IMG/VR virus record: IMGVR_UViG_3300030330_004160
Location: 96,001-160,000 of that record
DNA from: a virus
Taxonomy: Duplodnaviria; Caudoviricetes
Length of the DNA: 64,000 bases
Strand: one strand, 5' to 3'
Below are positions 1 to 9,261 of this stretch, piece after piece; position 1 is the stretch's first letter, and every line of letters starts with the position of its first letter. The position numbers and the translations under genes were made by a program. The notes below the pieces were generated by a model. The model was not told where the DNA came from, did no database searches, and saw only the letters and a program-made list of their open reading frames with translations.

Positions 1-1306
1 TGAACAAATTGAACAAATCCCTGCTGAGATCATTGACATAGATCAAGTCAAGAAAGACATAAGCGACAAAGAGCGTGAGATAAAAAACGTCCTGCGACAA
101 AATATCAAACTTCATGATAGTATAGCCCGTAGTAGGATTAAGATTGAAGATGTGGATGTTATTCTGGCTGGTATCGACCTGCAAAAACTCAAGAACCAGA
201 AAGAAGAATGGAACACAATGTCTAAAAAGCGCTCCACCGTTCAAGGACAATGCAACACTACCAATGCAAAGTTGCAAAACAACCAAGCAAAACTAAAACT
301 TCTTGATGATATTCCTTGCGGCGAAAAGTTTCCAAATTGTAAGTTCATTTGTGATGCCCACAAAGCCAAAAAAAACGTGGGCGGTCTCTCCCGTGAAATC
401 GCAAAATTTAACGAAACTTTATCCGAGGTGGATACTTGGTTAGGAAACGTTAAAATTTCGGCTGTAAATGCTTCGATTGATGAGTATGAGGCGTCAAAAA
501 ACATCAGAGTCACCATAAACAACAGCATTAAAGACGCTTCCTTGGCGATTGAGAAGAATAAAGCCAAGATTCAGAAGTTAAAAGCAAACATATTGGACTT
601 GCAAGAGAAAGAAACTCTTTACGAGGAGAATAGAGAAGTTATAGAAAATCTAGGCACCCTGCTCAGAGAAAAGCAATCCATTGAAAAGTTAATTAAAAAT
701 AAAACATCACAGAATAAAAAATGTCAAGATGCTTTACAAGAACTTTACATTGAGCAAGGTGCAACAAAACAAACGATTGAAAACCTTCTTGATAGCAAGA
801 AAGAGGTAGAAGACATTGAGAAAGAGTGGGTGGCTTACGATTTGTTTATGAGATGTATGCATCCCAATGGTATACCATACGATATCATCAAGAAAAAGTT
901 GCCTGTCATTAATGGCGAAATAGCCAAAGTTCTTGCTAACATCGTTGACTTTGAGGTTTCCTTTGAGAATAATGACAAGAAGTTAGACATTAACATAAAG
1001 CATCCAAATTATGACGCTAGGCCCCTGTCCATGGCATCGGGAGCGGAAAAGACCTTGGCTTCAATGGCGATACGATTGGCGTTAATTTCTATAACAAATT
1101 TGCCAAAATCAGAAATTTTCGTATTAGACGAACCAGCAACAGCCCTAGACCACGAACACATGGAAGGTTTTATTAGACTTCTTCAAATGATAAAAAATCA
1201 ATTTAAGACAGTTATTTTAATATCTCATCTGGATTCATTGAAAGATGTGGTCGATATGACAATTGATATTGAAAAAGTTGATGGCTATGCTAAAGTGAGG
1301 ATTTAA
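1..1306 (+). CDS. SbcC/Rad50-like recombination ATPase (T4 gp46-like), 5' truncated by window
   Basis: Frame open from position 2; long coiled coil, CxxxxPxC zinc-hook-like motif, ABC signature ASGAEK, Walker B/D-loop FVLDEPATALD, H-loop ISHL. Confidence 0.93.
   Translation, partial: EQIEQIPAEIIDIDQVKKDISDKEREIKNVLRQNIKLHDSIARSRIKIEDVDVILAGIDLQKLKNQKEEWNTMSKKRSTVQGQCNTTNAKLQNNQAKLKLLDDIPCGEKFPNCKFICDAHKAKKNVGGLSREIAKFNETLSEVDTWLGNVKISAVNASIDEYEASKNIRVTINNSIKDASLAIEKNKAKIQKLKANILDLQEKETLYEENREVIENLGTLLREKQSIEKLIKNKTSQNKKCQDALQELYIEQGATKQTIENLLDSKKEVEDIEKEWVAYDLFMRCMHPNGIPYDIIKKKLPVINGEIAKVLANIVDFEVSFENNDKKLDINIKHPNYDARPLSMASGAEKTLASMAIRLALISITNLPKSEIFVLDEPATALDHEHMEGFIRLLQMIKNQFKTVILISHLDSLKDVVDMTIDIEKVDGYAKVRI
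1127..1306 (+). repeat. Copy 1 of 180-bp direct repeat (3' end of SbcC gene, DEPAT...KVRI*)
   Basis: Aligns without gaps to 1984-2163; 26 mismatches by hand count (~86% identity), only 2 amino-acid changes. Confidence 0.97.
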
Positions 1307-1332
1307 TCCCCCCAGTATGTTTTTTCTTGATG

Positions 1333-1371
1333 AGCCACCTATTTATTTTAGACAGACTTAAATAGGTGGCT
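1333..1371 (+). promoter_or_regulatory. Perfect 13-bp hairpin sequestering the endonuclease RBS; 5' arm contains late-promoter motif CTATTTA
   Basis: AGCCACCTATTTA (1333-1345) / TAAATAGGTGGCT (1359-1371); SD AGGTGG 1364-1369, ATG 1376. Confidence 0.8.
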
Positions 1372-1375
1372 TTTT

Positions 1376-1969
1376 ATGACTTGTGGAATATATCAAATCA
1401 AAAATATTATCAATGGGATGATGTATATAGGCAGCAGTGTCAACATCCAAAAAAGATGGCAACAACATTTAAGGTTGCTCCGGAAAAACTCTCATGAGAA
1501 TTCACATCTTCAAAATTCTTTCAATAAACATGGCGAGAGTAATTTTGAATTTTCTGTTTTGATAGAAGTCGACAGAGAGCAACTACTCATTGAGGAGCAG
1601 AAATATATGGATGATACCAAGTGTTATGATCGCAATGTTGGCTTTAATAAATCTATAACAGCAGGGCACCCAACGAAAGGCAATAAAATATCTGAAGCAA
1701 CACGGGCAAAAATGAAAGAGGCCAAAAGAGGATACATACCAGTATGCGCGCATATGCCCATGTCAGAAGAAGGAAAAAAAAGAATTAGTGAAATAGCCAA
1801 AACAAGAACAGGACATAAGAATCCAAACTCCCGCCTAACACCGGAACAGATAACAGAGATGCGAAAAGATTTTAAGATCTGTAGCATGACTAATGGCGAA
1901 ATAGCAAAAAAATATGGAGTTTCTATTTCAACTATTAAGAGAATTAAGAGTGGAAAAACATACAAATAA
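1376..1969 (+). mobile_element. Free-standing GIY-YIG homing endonuclease (NUMOD3-like and C-terminal HTH DNA-binding modules)
   Basis: CGIYQI...YIGSS...RWQQH...H.N.HLQNSFNKHG...E; SEATRAKM and SEEGKKRISE repeats; HTH IAKKYGVSISTIKRI. Confidence 0.93.
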
Positions 1970-1971
1970 CG

Positions 1972-1979
1972 ACTATTTA
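1972..1979 (+). promoter_or_regulatory. Putative late promoter ACTATTTA at right end of endonuclease element
   Basis: Recurrent motif upstream of structural genes. Confidence 0.55.
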
Positions 1980-1983
1980 TATT

Positions 1984-2163
1984 GATGAGCCAGCAACAGC
2001 CCTAGACCATGAGCATATGGAGGGGCTCATAAGACTTCTTCAGATGATAAAAAATCAATTCAAAACAGTTATATTGATTTCACATTTAGATTCTTTGAAA
2101 GATGTGGTCGATATGACGATTGACATTGAGAAGGTTGATGGCTTTGCCAAAGTGAGGATTTAA
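1984..2163 (+). pseudogene. Displaced duplicate of the SbcC 3' end (copy 2 of 180-bp repeat)
   Basis: Encodes DEPATALDHEHMEGLIRLLQ...GFAKVRI* with no start or RBS at its 5' end; its TAA abuts the next ATG (2165). Confidence 0.9.
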
Positions 2164-2554: not shown

Positions 2555-2806
2555 ATGAGTGAAGAAACCTTAACAGAGAGCAGCGTAGATTGCGAAGGCG
2601 AGATTGACCAAGGCGCCGAGAAACTAGGTATTATCGACAGAATGCTTGAGAAGGCAATCTCTAGAAAACTTATCGTTTTTCTCACCGCCACTGGTTTATT
2701 GGCTTGGAGCGATTTAGACCCAGATACTTGGGGATTGATTGCTATTTGCTACATCGGCGGACAATCTGTGATTGATGCCGTTAAGACTTATAAGTATGGT
2801 GGATAG
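2555..2806 (+). CDS. Small two-TM membrane protein, probable holin
   Basis: SD AGGAG; SRKLIVFL... with two hydrophobic segments; upstream of spanin-like genes. Confidence 0.55.
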   Translation: MSEETLTESSVDCEGEIDQGAEKLGIIDRMLEKAISRKLIVFLTATGLLAWSDLDPDTWGLIAICYIGGQSVIDAVKTYKYGG

Positions 2807-3171: not shown

Positions 3172-3572
3172 GCCTTCTGGTTGCAAAGAAGTATTGGGGC
3201 AAGCTTAAGGTCTGGTGCTATTATCACTGGAAGTGGCTTGTTCTAATACTTGCCTTTGTGGTTATGTTCTTGTTGGGTCGTAAATCGAACAAAGGTTTGC
3301 TAAAACAAGCCGAAGGAGCACTGAAGTCTCAAAAATTAGAAAGCGCCGCAGTTGAAAGATCACATCGTTTAGAGATCAAGAAAAGAGAAAAGGCAAGAAA
3401 GAAGTACGAGTCCGCTATGGAAAGGATAGAAAAAGAACATTCCGAGGGCCAACAAAAACTTGACGAAGCCAAAAAGAAAGAATTGAAAAAGAATTTAAAA
3501 CTAGCCAAGAACAACCCAGATGAGATTGATAGAATCTTATCAGAACAGTTCGGCCTTAAGGAGACCAAATAA
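3168..3572 (+). CDS. Inner-membrane spanin-like protein (N-terminal TM plus coiled coil)
   Basis: TM WLVLILAFVVMFLLG followed by charged helical domain; GTGA overlap. Confidence 0.55.
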   Translation: MSLLVAKKYWGKLKVWCYYHWKWLVLILAFVVMFLLGRKSNKGLLKQAEGALKSQKLESAAVERSHRLEIKKREKARKKYESAMERIEKEHSEGQQKLDEAKKKELKKNLKLAKNNPDEIDRILSEQFGLKETK

Positions 3573-3805
3573 TGTTATTTTATTTATTTATGTTAACCGC
3601 CCACGCCGATGAGGGAGAAGAGGGCAAAATTACGTACAAGAAACAAACAGAGATCGACTTCGAAGCAATCGAACTTGAAGGAGAACTTGTTAAGCCTCAA
3701 GGTGCTCTGTTGCTTGAGAGAAAGAGGGCATCATTCAACCCTTTGATTACTTTGCGAAAAGACTTTAACAAGGAGATGAAAGAGTCCATCAAGGCGGTGG
3801 AATGA
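3572..3805 (+). CDS. cglF: CglF/GltF-like adventurous gliding motility protein (secreted)
   Basis: Signal peptide ending AHA; YKKQTEIDF..ELEGELVKPQG..ERKRASFNPLI.LRKDFNKE matches recalled CglF pattern (T.IDF..EGEL.KP.G..RK..F..LI..R..F..E). Confidence 0.75.
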   Translation: MLFYLFMLTAHADEGEEGKITYKKQTEIDFEAIELEGELVKPQGALLLERKRASFNPLITLRKDFNKEMKESIKAVE

Positions 3806-4200
3806 TATTGCTACTAATGTCTATGGCTCTAGCCGAAGAGCCCACATATGCCAACTTAAAGAAGGGAGACCCAGCGCCATTTGATGGTCGTTTGTTTAGC
3901 CCCGCAGCCGTCGCACAAGTTATAACGGAACATCGACTAAAAGATTTGGACTGCGATTTGGAGGTTGAATACCGCTTGGACAAAGCGGGAACAGAGGCGC
4001 AGTATACATATGATATACTTGAAGCCACTTGCAAGGCAGAGGCCCAGAAACTGCGTGATATTAATATTATCCGAGAGGAAGAACTCTCAATCTTAAGAGC
4101 CAGCAACAAACCACTGCGTCCTTATATATGGATGACTGGTGGCTTCATTATGGGCACAGCCACGTCTATTGCTATATTTAAAACGGTGAGTAATGAGTAA
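3802..4200 (+). CDS. Secreted/C-terminally anchored protein, possible spanin component
   Basis: Signal peptide, KGDPAPFDG motif, coiled coil, C-terminal TM. Confidence 0.45.
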   Translation: MILLLMSMALAEEPTYANLKKGDPAPFDGRLFSPAAVAQVITEHRLKDLDCDLEVEYRLDKAGTEAQYTYDILEATCKAEAQKLRDINIIREEELSILRASNKPLRPYIWMTGGFIMGTATSIAIFKTVSNE

Positions 4201-5759: not shown

Positions 5760-7343
5760 ATGGCTTACAAACTAACAAAAAAAGAAATTGTAAAAGAAAT
5801 ACTTAAGTCGGGCAAAGACCCGACATACTTTATTAATAACTATTGCCGCATTAGTCACCCAATGAAGGGGTTGATTCCTTTTAAGACGTATCCATATCAA
5901 GATGATTTACTACGTGATTTTAATGATTATCGCTTTAATGTAATCCTGAAGGCCCGACAGTTAGGAATCTCAACCATTTGCGCTGCTTATTGTGTGTGGT
6001 TTATGCTTTACCACAAAGAAAAGAACATTCTAGTTCTTGCGACAAAATTAAGTACAGCAACGAATCTTGTCCGAAAGGTTAAGGCTATTATGAAGGCGCT
6101 ACCAGATTGGTTAAGGATATCAGATATTATTGTTGACAACAGAACTTCATTTGAACTTTCAAACGGATCTATGATCAAAGCCGCCTCTACTTCCGGCGAT
6201 GCAGGTCGTTCAGAGGCCCTTTCGTTATTGGTGGTGGACGAGGCAGCACACATTGAGAGGATGAACGAAATATGGACTGCTATCTATCCCACACTATCGA
6301 CAGGTGGACGCTGCGTTGCTCTTTCCACTCCCTCCGGAGTTGGTAACTGGTTTCATAAAACATATATCGATGCGGTCGATGGGGACAATGATTTTCATCC
6401 CATAAACCTGCCGTGGGATGTACACCCAGAGAGAGACAAAGAGTGGTTCGAAAAAGAAACCAAGAACATGTCCCGTCGACAAATAGCGCAGGAACTAGAA
6501 TGTAACTTTAACACTTCCGGTGACACTGTCATCCACCCAGACGATATTGCTTGGATTAATGAAAGCATCAAAGAGCCCGATTACCGCACAGGCTATGATA
6601 GAAACTTTTGGATTTGGGAGAAATACATAGAGGAAGCGAGTTATTTATTAGTTGCTGACGTGGCCCGAGGGGATGGCGCTGACAACTCTGTCTTTCATAT
6701 TATAAAACTTGAAACGATGGAAGTTGTAGCCGAGTATCAAGGCAAGCCCAACTTAGACATGTATGCCACAATGTTAATGTCTGCTGGTCAAGAGTATGGC
6801 AACTGTTTGTTGGTTGTTGAGAATAATGGAATTGGCATTTCTATTTTAGAAAAGTTACAAACTCTTGGGTATCCAAATCTATACTATTCAATCAAAGCAA
6901 CGCACGAATATGTAAATGCCCACCAAGGTCAAGTAGATGACCGAGCAGTCGCTGGATTTACAACCTCAACTAAAACTAGGCCCCTTATTGTTGCAAAACT
7001 AGAAGAGTTCGTGAGAAATAAACTAATTAAAACGTACTCTAGCAGATTATTTCATGAGGTTAAAACTTTTATCTGGCATAATGGCAAGCCCCAAGCAATG
7101 CGTTCATATCATGATGATCTGATTATGTCACTGGCTATCGGATGCTGGGTTAGAGATACGGCATTGCAAGTCAACCAAAAAGATGTTGAATATAAGAAAG
7201 CGATGCTAGATGGGATTATTATGAATTCAACCAAAATGAATACAGCGATCAAAGGCATGGAAGGATACAACAAAGAGTTTCAGGAAAAATATAAAGATGA
7301 AATTGAACAAACAAAGGAATTTGTTTGGATTTTTAAAGGATAA
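5760..7343 (+). CDS. terL: Terminase large subunit (T4 gp17-like)
   Basis: YPYQ, LKARQLGIST Walker A, LVVDEAA Walker B, STPSG, QELEC, DVARGDG.D nuclease, HDDLIM. Confidence 0.97.
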   Translation: MAYKLTKKEIVKEILKSGKDPTYFINNYCRISHPMKGLIPFKTYPYQDDLLRDFNDYRFNVILKARQLGISTICAAYCVWFMLYHKEKNILVLATKLSTATNLVRKVKAIMKALPDWLRISDIIVDNRTSFELSNGSMIKAASTSGDAGRSEALSLLVVDEAAHIERMNEIWTAIYPTLSTGGRCVALSTPSGVGNWFHKTYIDAVDGDNDFHPINLPWDVHPERDKEWFEKETKNMSRRQIAQELECNFNTSGDTVIHPDDIAWINESIKEPDYRTGYDRNFWIWEKYIEEASYLLVADVARGDGADNSVFHIIKLETMEVVAEYQGKPNLDMYATMLMSAGQEYGNCLLVVENNGIGISILEKLQTLGYPNLYYSIKATHEYVNAHQGQVDDRAVAGFTTSTKTRPLIVAKLEEFVRNKLIKTYSSRLFHEVKTFIWHNGKPQAMRSYHDDLIMSLAIGCWVRDTALQVNQKDVEYKKAMLDGIIMNSTKMNTAIKGMEGYNKEFQEKYKDEIEQTKEFVWIFKG

Positions 7344-7347
7344 ATAA

Positions 7348-9261
7348 ATGGCTAAAGGTAAGAACCCGTACAATGACGAATCACAGTTGTTCAGAGCGCT
7401 AACCAGATTGTTCTCTGGGCCAATCGTCAATAGAAGAACGCAAACTGGGCGTCAATTAAAGAGAAGACATCTGGATACATATTCCAAGTGGTTTAAGTCT
7501 GCATCTGGGCAACAGTTCAAGAAAGCAGAATATAACCCAATGAATATCTTAAATGCGAATATGATTTCCAATCGCAACCGGTCAGAGAGATATATCGATT
7601 TTGATCAAATGGAGTATATGCCCGAGTTGGCTTCGGCACTTGATATTTATGCTGACGAGATGACCACACATTCGAATCTCCAGCCAATGCTTCATATTAA
7701 ATGCCCTAATGATGAGATCAAAGCTATATTAGACGCTCTATACCACAATGTTTTGAATATTGACTATAACTTGTTTGGTTGGTGTCGCACCATGTGCAAG
7801 TATGGGGATCTGTTTCTTTACTTGGATATTGACGATAAAATGGGCATTACTCATACAATAGGGCTTCCTTCGAATGAAGTTGAGCGTATGGAAGGGCAAG
7901 ATAAAAACAATCCAAATTATGTCCAGTTTCAGTGGAACTCTGCCGGTATGACTTTGGAAAACTGGCAAATGGCACACTTCCGCATCTTGGGTAATGACAA
8001 GCACATGCCCTATGGAACTTCTGTCTTAGAGCCAGCCCGTCGTATTTGGCGACAACTTACTCTTCTTGAGGATGCTATGATGGCTTATCGCATTGTTCGC
8101 TCCCCTGAGCGTAGGGTATTTTACGTCGATGTTGGGAACATTGCCCCACAAGACGTTGAGCAGTACATGCAGAAAGTCATGACTCAGATGAAGAGAAATC
8201 AGATTACAGACCCCACCACAGGTAAGGTCGATTTGCGATACAATCCAATGTCAATTGAAGAAGATTATTTTATTCCTGTGCGTGGCGGAACTTCAACAAA
8301 GATTGAAAACCTAGCAGGAGGGAACTTCACAGGCCAAGTAGACGATGTAAAGTATTTGAGAGATAAACTGTTCGCCGCTATCAAAATTCCCCAATCCTAT
8401 CTTACAATGGGTGAGGGAGCCACAGAAGACAAGACAACATTGGCTCAAAAAGATATTCGTTTTGCGAGAACCATTCAAAGACTCCAAAGAGTTGTGATAT
8501 CTGAACTTGAAAAGATTGGAATTATCCATCTTTACACTTTGGGTTTCCGCAACGACGACTTACTAAGTTTTAAACTTAAACTCAACAACCCATCCAAGAT
8601 AGCAGAACTTCAAGAATTGGAGCACTGGAAAACAAAGTTTGATGCTGCTGGTGCAGCCACTGAGGGCTTCTTTAGTAAGCGATGGATCGCTGAGCATATG
8701 CTTGGCATATCCGAAGAAGAGTTCCTTCGCAATCAAAGAGAAATGTTTTTTGATAAAAAGTTTGCTGCTGCTCTTGAGGCTACAACAGCGGGTGAAACCG
8801 GCGGTGCCGATGCCCTTGGTGGCGGAGGCGGAATGATCAGTGATGATTTCGGCGGAGGTCTAGATAAACCAGAAGATGATCTGGGTGGTGGCTTAGGCGA
8901 TGACCAAGGGGATGCCACTGCACCGCCTCCAGAGCCAGATAAAAAAGAAGATGATGTTCTTCTGGCTGAGCCTCCCGCAAAAAGAAACGATGGTACGACT
9001 TACGAGATGGATTCCACCAAAGTCCGTAGACCTCGGAGAGCACAAAGTTACAATGTACAGCCTGAGACCAACACTCATAGGACTAACAATTTGGGCTATG
9101 CTGGGCCTGGAAGTTTGAAGTCTTTGGCTCAAGGCTTTATGGAGAACCAAGATAGTAGTGATTTATTAGAAGAGCAAGAACTATTTAGTGTTAGCAGAGA
9201 AGTAACTAGTTTACTTGAGAGTCTCAAAATAATGGAGAATAAAGATGAAGATGAAGCATAA
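7348..9261 (+). CDS. Portal protein (T4 gp20-like)
   Basis: LLEDAMMAYRIVRSPERRVFYVDVGN, EDYFIP, DVKYLRDKLFAA. Confidence 0.96.
   Translation: MAKGKNPYNDESQLFRALTRLFSGPIVNRRTQTGRQLKRRHLDTYSKWFKSASGQQFKKAEYNPMNILNANMISNRNRSERYIDFDQMEYMPELASALDIYADEMTTHSNLQPMLHIKCPNDEIKAILDALYHNVLNIDYNLFGWCRTMCKYGDLFLYLDIDDKMGITHTIGLPSNEVERMEGQDKNNPNYVQFQWNSAGMTLENWQMAHFRILGNDKHMPYGTSVLEPARRIWRQLTLLEDAMMAYRIVRSPERRVFYVDVGNIAPQDVEQYMQKVMTQMKRNQITDPTTGKVDLRYNPMSIEEDYFIPVRGGTSTKIENLAGGNFTGQVDDVKYLRDKLFAAIKIPQSYLTMGEGATEDKTTLAQKDIRFARTIQRLQRVVISELEKIGIIHLYTLGFRNDDLLSFKLKLNNPSKIAELQELEHWKTKFDAAGAATEGFFSKRWIAEHMLGISEEEFLRNQREMFFDKKFAAALEATTAGETGGADALGGGGGMISDDFGGGLDKPEDDLGGGLGDDQGDATAPPPEPDKKEDDVLLAEPPAKRNDGTTYEMDSTKVRRPRRAQSYNVQPETNTHRTNNLGYAGPGSLKSLAQGFMENQDSSDLLEEQELFSVSREVTSLLESLKIMENKDEDEA

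What the first reader, a model, noticed from the sequence alone, without database searches (positions are those of the whole stretch)
3572..3805. Phage-encoded CglF/GltF gliding-motility homologue inside the lysis-like cassette
Seen: 77-aa ORF with signal peptide, translationally coupled between a spanin-like gene and a secreted protein. From memory its mature part matches the myxobacterial/Bdellovibrio CglF (GltF) pattern, a small periplasmic/outer-membrane component of the Agl-Glt gliding machinery. I know of no described phage carrying a Glt component. Inference: it may jam or tune host gliding (receptor exclusion, altering dispersal of infected cells) or engage the trans-envelope Glt complex during lysis. 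It is also the best host clue in the window.
Basis: partly seen in the sequence, partly recalled or inferred. Interest (0 to 1): 0.85.

Follow-up and report, generated by a model that had tools for sequence, protein, structure and literature searches.

The report
Phage copy of gliding-machine linker GltF
A 185-kb uncultured T4-like phage carries its own well-preserved copy of GltF/CglF, the small periplasmic linker of the envelope-spanning gliding machine of myxobacteria, which points to aquatic Myxococcota as hosts and suggests the phage acts on that machine during infection.

Summary
The 77-aa ORF at 3572-3805 is real. It overlaps both neighbouring genes (TAATG upstream, ATGA downstream). 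It matches NCBIfam NF033764 (CglF) at E 1.2e-13 and 50.9 bits, below the 90-bit equivalog cut-off.

Its closest cellular relatives are 60-72% identical. They lie in aquatic Myxococcota MAGs in the order gltC, gltD-like, gltE, gltF, gltG, and they score equally low against the model (53 and 41 bits). The low score therefore reflects lineage, not non-homology.

- The phage genome has no other Glt gene.
- At least 112 IMG/VR contigs carry a copy; none of 50,697 GenBank phage records does.
- Viral copies form at least 4 clusters on a weakly resolved tree and are under strong purifying selection (dN/dS 0.01-0.18).
- They keep every conserved position of the bacterial protein, including the strand and C-terminal helix that a published model docks onto GltG and GltC.

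The placement "inside a lysis cassette" is incidental. A sister phage (TerL 75% identical) has the same Rz-like/132-aa cassette without gltF and carries its copy about 70 kb away.

I found no paper describing this. Earlier reports of this scan reached the same reading on other phage genomes.

Whether the phage copy sustains or jams the machine is unresolved. I lean towards sustaining.

The parts
3572..3805 (+). gltF/cglF-like gene, 77 aa
   Evidence: ORF. NF033764 E 1.2e-13, 50.9 bits. 60-72% identical to syntenic gltF of Myxococcota MAGs. dN/dS 0.01-0.18 among phage copies.
3572..3607 (+). short N-terminal signal-peptide-like segment (12 aa, ends AHA before DEG)
   Evidence: Read from the sequence. 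Homologues have canonical AxA signal peptides. AlphaFold2 gives a helix at residues 3-8. No predictor was run.
3629..3694 (+). extended conserved core (residues 20-41; Y22, K23, TEIDF 26-30, G37, L39, KP 41-42), equivalent to the strand that docks on the GltG TonB-like domain in the published model
   Evidence: Column conservation is the same in 65 viral and 73 bacterial sequences. Extended in the AF2 monomer. The docking role comes from PMC11761067. The mapping onto this copy is by inference.
3764..3799 (+). C-terminal amphipathic helix (residues 65-76), equivalent to the helix that sits in the GltC crevice in the published model
   Evidence: AF2 helix at 65-76. Conserved F65, E68 and S72. 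Role from PMC11761067.
3168..3572 (+). upstream 134-aa protein with an N-terminal TM segment and a charged coiled-coil tail (Rz-like, weak match)
   Evidence: phrog_739 Rz-like spanin, E 4.4e-5, plus four weaker Rz-like PHROGs. Conserved in 7 sister contigs and in G406.
3802..4200 (+). downstream 132-aa protein with a short signal peptide, two conserved Cys and a C-terminal TM helix; function unknown
   Evidence: Sequences of relatives. Virus-only clusters in the Atlas. No Pfam, NCBIfam or PHROG match.
2555..2806 (+). 83-aa protein with two predicted TM segments (holin-like by shape only), first gene of the conserved cassette
   Evidence: Sequence. Conserved in L002, L010, L022 and G406. No family match.
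62045..62119 (+). tRNA-Arg(TCT), the only tRNA of the phage; a weak host clue
   Evidence: ARAGORN on the whole genome. AGA makes up 52% of phage Arg codons but 6% in glt genes of candidate host-type MAGs.

Best explanation
The gene is a host-derived copy of gltF. GltF is the small periplasmic linker of the Agl-Glt-type envelope-spanning machine of Myxococcota.

Shown:
- It is homologous to GltF.
- Its closest cellular relatives are the syntenic gltF genes of aquatic Myxococcota.
- It is kept under strong purifying selection in many phages.
- It keeps all conserved positions of the bacterial protein.

Inferred:
- After export to the periplasm of an infected Myxococcota cell, it docks on the host machine exactly as host GltF does.
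- Its extended strand adds to the TonB-like C-terminal domain of the inner-membrane protein GltG. Its C-terminal helix sits in the crevice of the outer-membrane-proximal TPR protein GltC.
- The phage thereby controls the coupling between the proton-driven motor and the outer-membrane platform.

My preferred reading is that it stands in for a small, largely unfolded and probably short-lived host subunit once host gene expression stops. That would keep the machine, and with it gliding, surface feeding or envelope function, working until lysis. This is the logic of cyanophage psbA. The direction of the effect (sustain or jam) is not shown.
For: - Family match: NF033764, E 1.2e-13.
- Cellular relatives: 145 bacterial loci encode a relative, of which the best 80 were fetched; most bear Myxococcota or Deltaproteobacteria MAG titles, the rest look like database mislabels.
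- Context: in L029 the order is GltC (NF033756), TPR GltD-like, GltE (NF033758), CglF (53.2 bits), GltG (NF033760, 345 bits). CglE/GltH follows GltG in L049. gltG follows gltF in at least 45 loci.
- Distribution: 191 of 401 genomes of that phylum match the phage protein, the best at 62-72% identity.
- Conservation: conserved columns are the same in viral and bacterial copies. dN/dS is 0.01-0.18 where dS is not saturated.
- Fold: the AF2 monomer is extended with a C-terminal helix at 65-76 (mean pLDDT 79, pTM 0.24). This agrees with the description of M. xanthus GltF as largely disordered with a C-terminal helix binding GltC and a strand adding to the GltG TonB-CTD (PMC11761067).
- Domain fusions: a CglF-like module lies directly before an AgmX/PglI (GltG/GltJ-type) C-terminal domain in VIT-VWA proteins P0218 and P0224. 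This independently links the two modules.
- Complex prediction: phage GltF residues 13-77 with the GltG C-terminal domain of L029 gave weak support. ipSAE was 0.43 (runs 0.43, 0.45, 0.32) against a best control of 0.00. The runs agree in at least 44% of contacts, and partner pLDDT was at least 49. The mark was reached by 58 of 80 solved complexes and 2 of 110 mismatched pairs, but a pass at 0.60 or under was seen in only 7 of those 80 and in both mismatches that passed, so it is weak.
- Known function: GltF is essential for gliding, localises to focal adhesions, and GltD clusters need it (PMC3169522).
Against: - Nothing shows the direction of the effect.
- No host is proven. The phage is about 40% GC, against 48-70% for the bacterial loci. 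Such gaps are usual for T4-like phages (my own knowledge).
- The signal peptide of this copy is very short, with no charged n-region.
- The score is below the curated equivalog cut-off.
- The complex prediction is only weak, the partner's own fold in it is uncertain, and the GltG used is a stand-in from a MAG that may not be the host.
- The function of the Glt-type cluster in planktonic Myxococcota (gliding, an Nfs-like role or other) is unknown.
Confidence: 0.6

Rival explanations
1. Interference or exclusion. The phage copy is made in excess and acts as a decoy. By occupying GltG and GltC on separate molecules it uncouples motor and outer-membrane platform. The infected cell stops gliding, or a Glt-dependent, proton-driven entry route is closed to superinfecting phages.
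For: - It has the same binding elements as host GltF. An excess of a two-ended linker can break the bridge it normally forms (inference).
- Phages are known to block host surface-motility machines and TonB/Tol-dependent entry routes, for example pilus inhibitors of Pseudomonas phages (my own knowledge).
- The phage also carries a choice-of-anchor D plus MIDAS-VWA protein with weak CglD-like and Bdellovibrio-adhesin-like matches. This suggests wider surface remodelling.
Against: - Both docking elements are kept at host-like conservation. A pure decoy would need only one.
- No phage-specific substitutions occur at conserved positions.
- No expression-level data exist.
Confidence: 0.3
2. Lysis accessory. 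In this phage lineage the GltF copy works with the Rz-like protein and the 132-aa membrane protein. It tethers a spanin-like inner-membrane complex to the host's outer-membrane Glt platform in place of a lipoprotein o-spanin.
For: - The gene overlaps both neighbours.
- The upstream gene has Rz-like PHROG matches.
- No lipobox-bearing o-spanin candidate is seen in or after the Rz-like gene.
- gltF is followed by the 132-aa gene in all 7 sister contigs: directly in most, with a gap of about 450 nt in L022.
Against: - G406 (TerL 75% identical) has the same cassette (83-aa, Rz-like, 132-aa). In the slot it carries a phrog_15610-like 116-aa gene, and its gltF lies about 70 kb away.
- In L004, L010 and L022 other genes separate the Rz-like gene from gltF.
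- About 70 other viral contigs carry gltF in unrelated contexts.
- The Rz-like match is weak, and no endolysin was identified nearby.
Confidence: 0.07
3. A general TonB-like-domain ligand that is not specific to Glt. The module binds AgmX/PglI-type C-terminal domains of other envelope proteins (for example VIT-VWA proteins or GltJ/PglI paralogues), and the phage targets one of those systems.
For: - CglF-like modules occur inside VIT-VWA proteins and other large proteins next to AgmX/PglI C-terminal domains.
- Several Myxococcota genomes have 2-5 matches to the phage protein.
Against: - The closest cellular relatives (60-72% identity) are the stand-alone gltF genes next to gltG. The fused modules score far lower: 24-42 bits against the CglF model and 49-60 bits against the phage protein, versus 84-92 bits for the stand-alone genes.
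- Size and architecture match stand-alone GltF.
Confidence: 0.1
4. Not a phage gene at all: bacterial DNA misassembled or misbinned into viral contigs, or a decaying passenger.
For: IMG/VR contigs can include cellular fragments. One 'Myxococcota MAG' contig (L096, 48% GC) groups with the phage clade.
Against: - The gene lies 2 kb from the T4-like terminase and portal in a 185-kb record rated 100% complete.
- Its GC and codon style match the phage.
- None of 80 viral loci has GltC, D, E or G within 4 kb.
- Synteny is conserved in 7 sister contigs.
- Purifying selection is strong.
Confidence: 0.02

Closest known systems
GltF = CglF of Myxococcus xanthus (MXAN_4868; NCBIfam NF033764)
   Same: - Small exported protein with the same conserved core, strand region and C-terminal helix.
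- Significant HMM match.
- Extended fold with a C-terminal helix, as described in PMC11761067.
   Different: - Encoded by a phage with no other glt gene.
- Scores 50.9 bits against a 90-bit cut-off.
- Belongs to the subfamily of aquatic uncultured Myxococcota, not the Myxococcus type.
- Shorter signal peptide.
Syntenic gltF of aquatic Myxococcota MAGs (e.g. UBA796-type L029, L035, L049)
   Same: - 60-72% identity.
- Same mature length (about 62-66 aa).
- Same sub-cut-off HMM score (53 and 41 bits).
- Identical conserved columns.
   Different: - The bacterial copies lie between gltE and gltG, in genomes of 52-70% GC.
- The phage copy lies near the terminase, in a genome of about 40% GC.
Host-derived subunit genes of phages such as cyanophage psbA (my own knowledge)
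   Same: A single small, probably labile subunit of a large host machine, carried by many phage lineages and kept host-like under purifying selection.
   Different: It is not a metabolic enzyme or photosystem part but a structural linker of a motility/envelope machine. A benefit to the phage is not shown.
Phage inhibitors of host surface motility, e.g. type IV pilus inhibitors of Pseudomonas phages (my own knowledge)
   Same: A phage protein aimed at a host surface-motility apparatus, possibly giving superinfection exclusion.
   Different: Those are phage-invented inhibitors acting in the cytoplasm. This is a near-copy of a host periplasmic component.
CglF-like module inside VIT-VWA / AgmX-PglI C-terminal domain proteins (P0218, P0224, P0227, P0247)
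   Same: Same sequence module, detected by the same HMM.
   Different: There it is an internal domain of 630-770 aa proteins and scores lower (28-32 bits). The phage protein is stand-alone.

Membership tests
GltF/CglF (NCBIfam NF033764) | Significant match to the family profile over most of its length | tested here: met
   E 1.2e-13, 50.9 bits, residues 12-74 against profile 24-86 of 88. Six-frame search of the genome gave 5.1e-14.
GltF/CglF (NCBIfam NF033764) | Score above the curated equivalog cut-off (90 bits) | tested here: not met
   50.9 bits. The syntenic gltF genes of aquatic Myxococcota also fail, at 53.2 and 41.2 bits. The cut-off therefore separates the Myxococcus type from this subfamily rather than GltF from non-GltF.
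GltF/CglF (NCBIfam NF033764) | Small protein with an N-terminal type I signal peptide | tested here: inconclusive
   77 aa. The hydrophobic N-terminus ends AHA before DEG, but is only 12 aa with no charged n-region. Relatives have canonical signal peptides. No predictor was available.
GltF/CglF (NCBIfam NF033764) | Conserved core residues shared with bacterial GltF | tested here: met
   Y22, K23, TEIDF 26-30, G37, L39, K41, P42, R50, F55, N56, R62, D64, F65, E68 and S72 are all kept.
GltF/CglF (NCBIfam NF033764) | Gene lies in a glt cluster next to gltE and gltG | tested here: not met
   The phage genome has no GltG, GltC, CglE or AgmX/PglI C-terminal domain. This is expected for a captured gene. 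The closest bacterial relatives do meet the feature.
GltF/CglF (NCBIfam NF033764) | Largely extended chain with a C-terminal helix (published model of M. xanthus GltF) | tested here: met
   AF2: helix at 65-76, the rest extended, mean pLDDT 79, pTM 0.24. Compared with PMC11761067.
GltF/CglF (NCBIfam NF033764) | Binds the GltG TonB-like C-terminal domain and GltC | tested here: inconclusive
   Weak support only: ipSAE 0.43 against a best control of 0.00, with partner pLDDT about 50. Passes at 0.60 or under are more often wrong than right unless the guess was likely beforehand. GltC was not tested.
GltF/CglF (NCBIfam NF033764) | Required for gliding and recruited to focal adhesions | not testable with these tools
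   Needs genetics and microscopy. Known for M. xanthus GltF (PMC3169522).
Two-component spanin (Rz/Rz1) for the flanking cassette | i-spanin with an N-terminal TM segment and a periplasmic coiled coil | tested here: inconclusive
   The 134-aa upstream protein has that shape and a weak phrog_739 match, E 4.4e-5.
Two-component spanin (Rz/Rz1) for the flanking cassette | Partner o-spanin: small outer-membrane lipoprotein with a lipobox Cys | tested here: not met
   The 77-aa protein has no Cys at all. In the 132-aa protein and its relatives the signal peptide is followed by EEP/AEP with no lipobox Cys. The only ORF of 40 aa or more inside the Rz-like gene lies on the minus strand.

The most novel reading that the evidence does not exclude
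Many lineages of large aquatic phages have repeatedly captured one subunit of the host's gliding-type envelope machine. They use it to take control of force transmission across the envelope of planktonic Myxococcota, either keeping the machine running or switching it off as exclusion. This would be the first case of a phage-borne structural part of a bacterial gliding or focal-adhesion apparatus. It would also give a marker gene that assigns over a hundred orphan viral contigs to Myxococcota hosts.
Probability: 0.5. Interest if true: 0.75.

Novelty: new variant of a known kind. Interest (0 to 1): 0.6.

Why it matters
- GltF is the least understood essential piece of the myxobacterial gliding machine. 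A natural set of phage-borne versions, pared to the minimal mature protein, marks which parts matter. It also offers a ready tool for testing the proposed GltC-GltF-GltG bridge.
- It would extend the idea of host-derived phage genes from metabolism to a mechanical envelope machine.
- It gives a sequence marker linking more than 100 uncultured, mostly large aquatic phages to Myxococcota. A recent CRISPR-based survey recovered few viruses for the UBA796-type classes.

Tried and rejected
- Pfam and PHROGs gave no match for the 77-aa protein.
- The first genome-contig scan with a 113-row alignment failed for lack of a conserved stretch. It was redone with 13 rows.
- Taxon names of genomes reached through loci are withheld. 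The phylum tally therefore rests on record titles for the name Myxococcota, and I could not search Bdellovibrionota separately.
- I looked for low-GC bacterial carriers. Low-GC-looking relatives that could be traced were phage-like (P0097) or too short to tell (P0136, 617 bp).
- A T4-type late promoter (TATAAATA) and sigma-70/terminator scans around the gene gave nothing usable.
- No tmRNA was found in this phage. That host clue, used in an earlier report on another genome, is not available here.
- Contig L096, labelled a Myxococcota MAG, groups with the phage clade but shares only this gene with any phage locus. Its nature is unresolved.
- Single-linkage clustering of contexts merged 70 contigs into one component, so I do not claim a number of independent phage families from it.
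- The reading of the gene as a spanin partner was considered and set aside.

Full report
**What is there**

The window is bases 96001-160000 of a 185,386-bp IMG/VR virus record rated 100% complete. GC is about 39-44%.

- The terminase large subunit (5760-7343) is T4-like. It is 45% identical to that of Flavobacterium phage immuto and 34% to cyanomyoviruses. A portal gene follows at 7348-9261.
- ORF 3572-3805 (+) encodes 77 aa.
- Its ATG overlaps the stop of a 134-aa ORF (TAATG), and its stop overlaps the start of a 132-aa ORF (ATGA). GGAG lies upstream.
- The N-terminus is hydrophobic and ends AHA before an acidic mature end. It is only 12 residues long and has no charged n-region. Sister copies have normal signal peptides.

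**Identity**

- The protein matches NCBIfam NF033764 (adventurous gliding motility protein CglF) at E 1.2e-13 and 50.9 bits, over residues 12-74. The curated cut-off is 90 bits.
- Pfam and PHROGs have no model that matches.
- A word-indexed search found 541 unnamed relatives, mostly from marine metagenomes.
- An exhaustive HMMER search found 486 clusters at E <= 0.001.
- A scan of one genome per prokaryote species found 145 loci. The best 80 are MAGs mostly titled Myxococcota or Deltaproteobacteria. The remaining titles (Enterobacterales, Klebsiella and others) look like database mislabels.

**Bacterial context**

- In the UBA796-type MAG locus L029 the order is GltC (NF033756), a large TPR protein (GltD-like), GltE (NF033758), the CglF-like gene, then GltG (NF033760, 345 bits, with an AgmX/PglI C-terminal domain).
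- In L049 a CglE/GltH homologue follows GltG.
- gltG follows the gene in at least 45 loci.
- These syntenic bacterial genes score 53.2 and 41.2 bits against the CglF model, no better than the phage protein. The sub-cut-off score therefore marks a lineage of GltF, not a different family.
- In a sample of 401 genomes of that phylum, 191 match the phage protein, the best at 62-72% identity.

**Phage side**

- The phage genome has a single copy. It has no GltG, GltC, CglE or AgmX/PglI domain.
- A first scan found 27 viral contigs with a relative. A profile-based scan found 112, of which 80 were fetched.
  - These have GC 33-57% (median 39%) and contig sizes up to 316 kb.
  - None has GltC, D, E or G within 4 kb.
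- Flanking genes in other contigs are phage-like: HNH endonuclease, thymidylate synthase, polynucleotide kinase/MazG-like, PhoH.
- None of 50,697 GenBank phage records has a relative at E <= 0.001.
- On a 60-column tree the viral label needs at least four changes.
  - The window's clade is one cluster of 8 viral sequences plus one unresolved MAG contig.
  - A second cluster of 13 viral sequences nests, with starred support, among marine UBA796/UBA2957-type MAG sequences.
  - With so few columns this shows interleaving, not an exact count of transfers.
- dN/dS among phage copies is 0.01-0.18 wherever dS is not saturated.
- Column by column, 65 viral and 73 bacterial sequences conserve the same positions.

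**Is it part of a lysis cassette?**

- The upstream protein has an N-terminal TM segment, a charged helical tail and a weak Rz-like spanin match (phrog_739, E 4.4e-5).
- The downstream protein has a signal peptide and a C-terminal TM helix, and belongs to virus-only clusters.
- An 83-aa two-TM protein starts the conserved block.
- Seven sister contigs share the order 83-aa, Rz-like, gltF, 132-aa, then terminase. In three of them other genes sit between the Rz-like gene and gltF.
- Genome G406 is decisive.
  - It is 187 kb, and its TerL is 75% identical to ours.
  - It has the same block, but the slot between the Rz-like and 132-aa genes holds a 116-aa phrog_15610-like gene.
  - Its only gltF copy lies at 25.2 kb, about 70 kb from the terminase.
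- The slot is therefore a variable insertion point, and the gene's function does not depend on the cassette.

**How it probably works**

- M. xanthus GltF (MXAN_4868) is essential for gliding, sits at focal adhesions, and is needed for GltD clustering (PMC3169522).
- A 2025 structural model describes it as largely disordered. It is proposed to bridge GltC, through a C-terminal helix in a crevice, with the TonB-like C-terminal domain of GltG, through strand addition, touching GltD on the way (PMC11761067).
- The phage protein folds in AlphaFold2 as an extended chain with a C-terminal helix at 65-76 (mean pLDDT 79, pTM 0.24). It keeps both conserved segments.
- Independent support for the GltF/TonB-like pairing comes from domain fusions. 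In VIT-VWA proteins a CglF-like module lies directly before an AgmX/PglI C-terminal domain.
- A complex prediction of phage GltF (residues 13-77) with the GltG C-terminal domain of L029 gave weak support.
  - ipSAE was 0.43 against a best control of 0.00.
  - The runs agree in at least 44% of contacts, and partner pLDDT was at least 49.
  - By the tool's calibration, such a low pass is more often wrong than right unless the guess was likely beforehand.
- I therefore infer that the exported phage protein docks on the host machine like host GltF.
- Because both docking elements are kept host-like, I lean to a stand-in role that keeps the machine coupled after host shut-off.
- A decoy or exclusion role remains a serious rival.

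**Host**

- The gene can only be useful in a cell that has GltG and GltC, and the nearest cellular copies are in aquatic Myxococcota.
- The only phage tRNA is Arg(TCT). AGA makes up 52% of phage Arg codons but 6% in glt genes of L029 and L049. This fits a low-GC phage in a higher-GC host, although it fits any such host.
- No tmRNA is present.

**What is known**

- Papers holding GltF or CglF do not mention a phage copy.
- A September 2026 preprint on 790 myxophages has no mention of glt or cgl, and notes that few viruses were recovered for UBA796-type classes.
- No paper combines 'adventurous gliding motility' with 'virome'.
- Earlier follow-up reports of this scan on at least eight other phage genomes reached the same reading. 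Those are AI notes, not independent evidence.
- What this window adds is the placement in a variable slot of a conserved envelope cassette, and the sister genome that shows the placement to be incidental.

**Verdict**

The gene is a new variant of a known kind: a host-derived phage gene that encodes a structural linker of a motility machine. Its mechanism is inferred, not shown.

Noticed in passing
window 2-2163: The SbcC/gp46-like gene (2-1306) is followed by a GIY-YIG endonuclease gene (1376-1969) and a second, start-less copy of the last 48 codons of SbcC (2017-2163). Sister contigs L002, L010 and L022 have a single 3' end at that place.
   Followed up: partly
window 58937-60538: A 533-aa protein with two choice-of-anchor D domains and a VWA/MIDAS region. 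It gives weak partial matches to the gliding lipoprotein CglD and to a Bdellovibrio MIDAS adhesin. A choice-of-anchor D protein also lies just after the glt cluster in L029.
   Followed up: partly
window 62045-62119: The single phage tRNA is Arg(TCT). The phage uses AGA for 52% of Arg codons, against 6% in candidate host-type glt genes.
   Followed up: yes
L191 6696-7046 (G406); L006-L008 6234-6587: A 116-117 aa membrane protein with an HETIHY motif (phrog_15610, annotated 'protease') fills the slot that gltF occupies in the window. In other phages it lies directly downstream of gltF. The two accessory genes seem to travel in the same neighbourhoods.
   Followed up: partly
P0218, P0224, P0227, P0247 (bacterial proteins): VIT-VWA proteins of 630-770 aa carry an internal CglF-like module. 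In P0218 and P0224 an AgmX/PglI TonB-like C-terminal domain follows it. This natural fusion links the two modules.
   Followed up: partly
window 2165, 2809; L005-L025 and L191 many ORFs: Unrelated proteins begin with similar short leaders (MKITKE..LKKIIKEE in the window's lineage; MKLLLENWRKY in other gltF-bearing phages).
   Followed up: no
L096 (4.4-kb contig of a 'Myxococcota' MAG, GC 48%): Its GltF-like gene groups with the window's phage clade on a long branch, but the contig shares nothing else with any phage locus. It may be a misbinned viral contig or a divergent host copy.
   Followed up: partly
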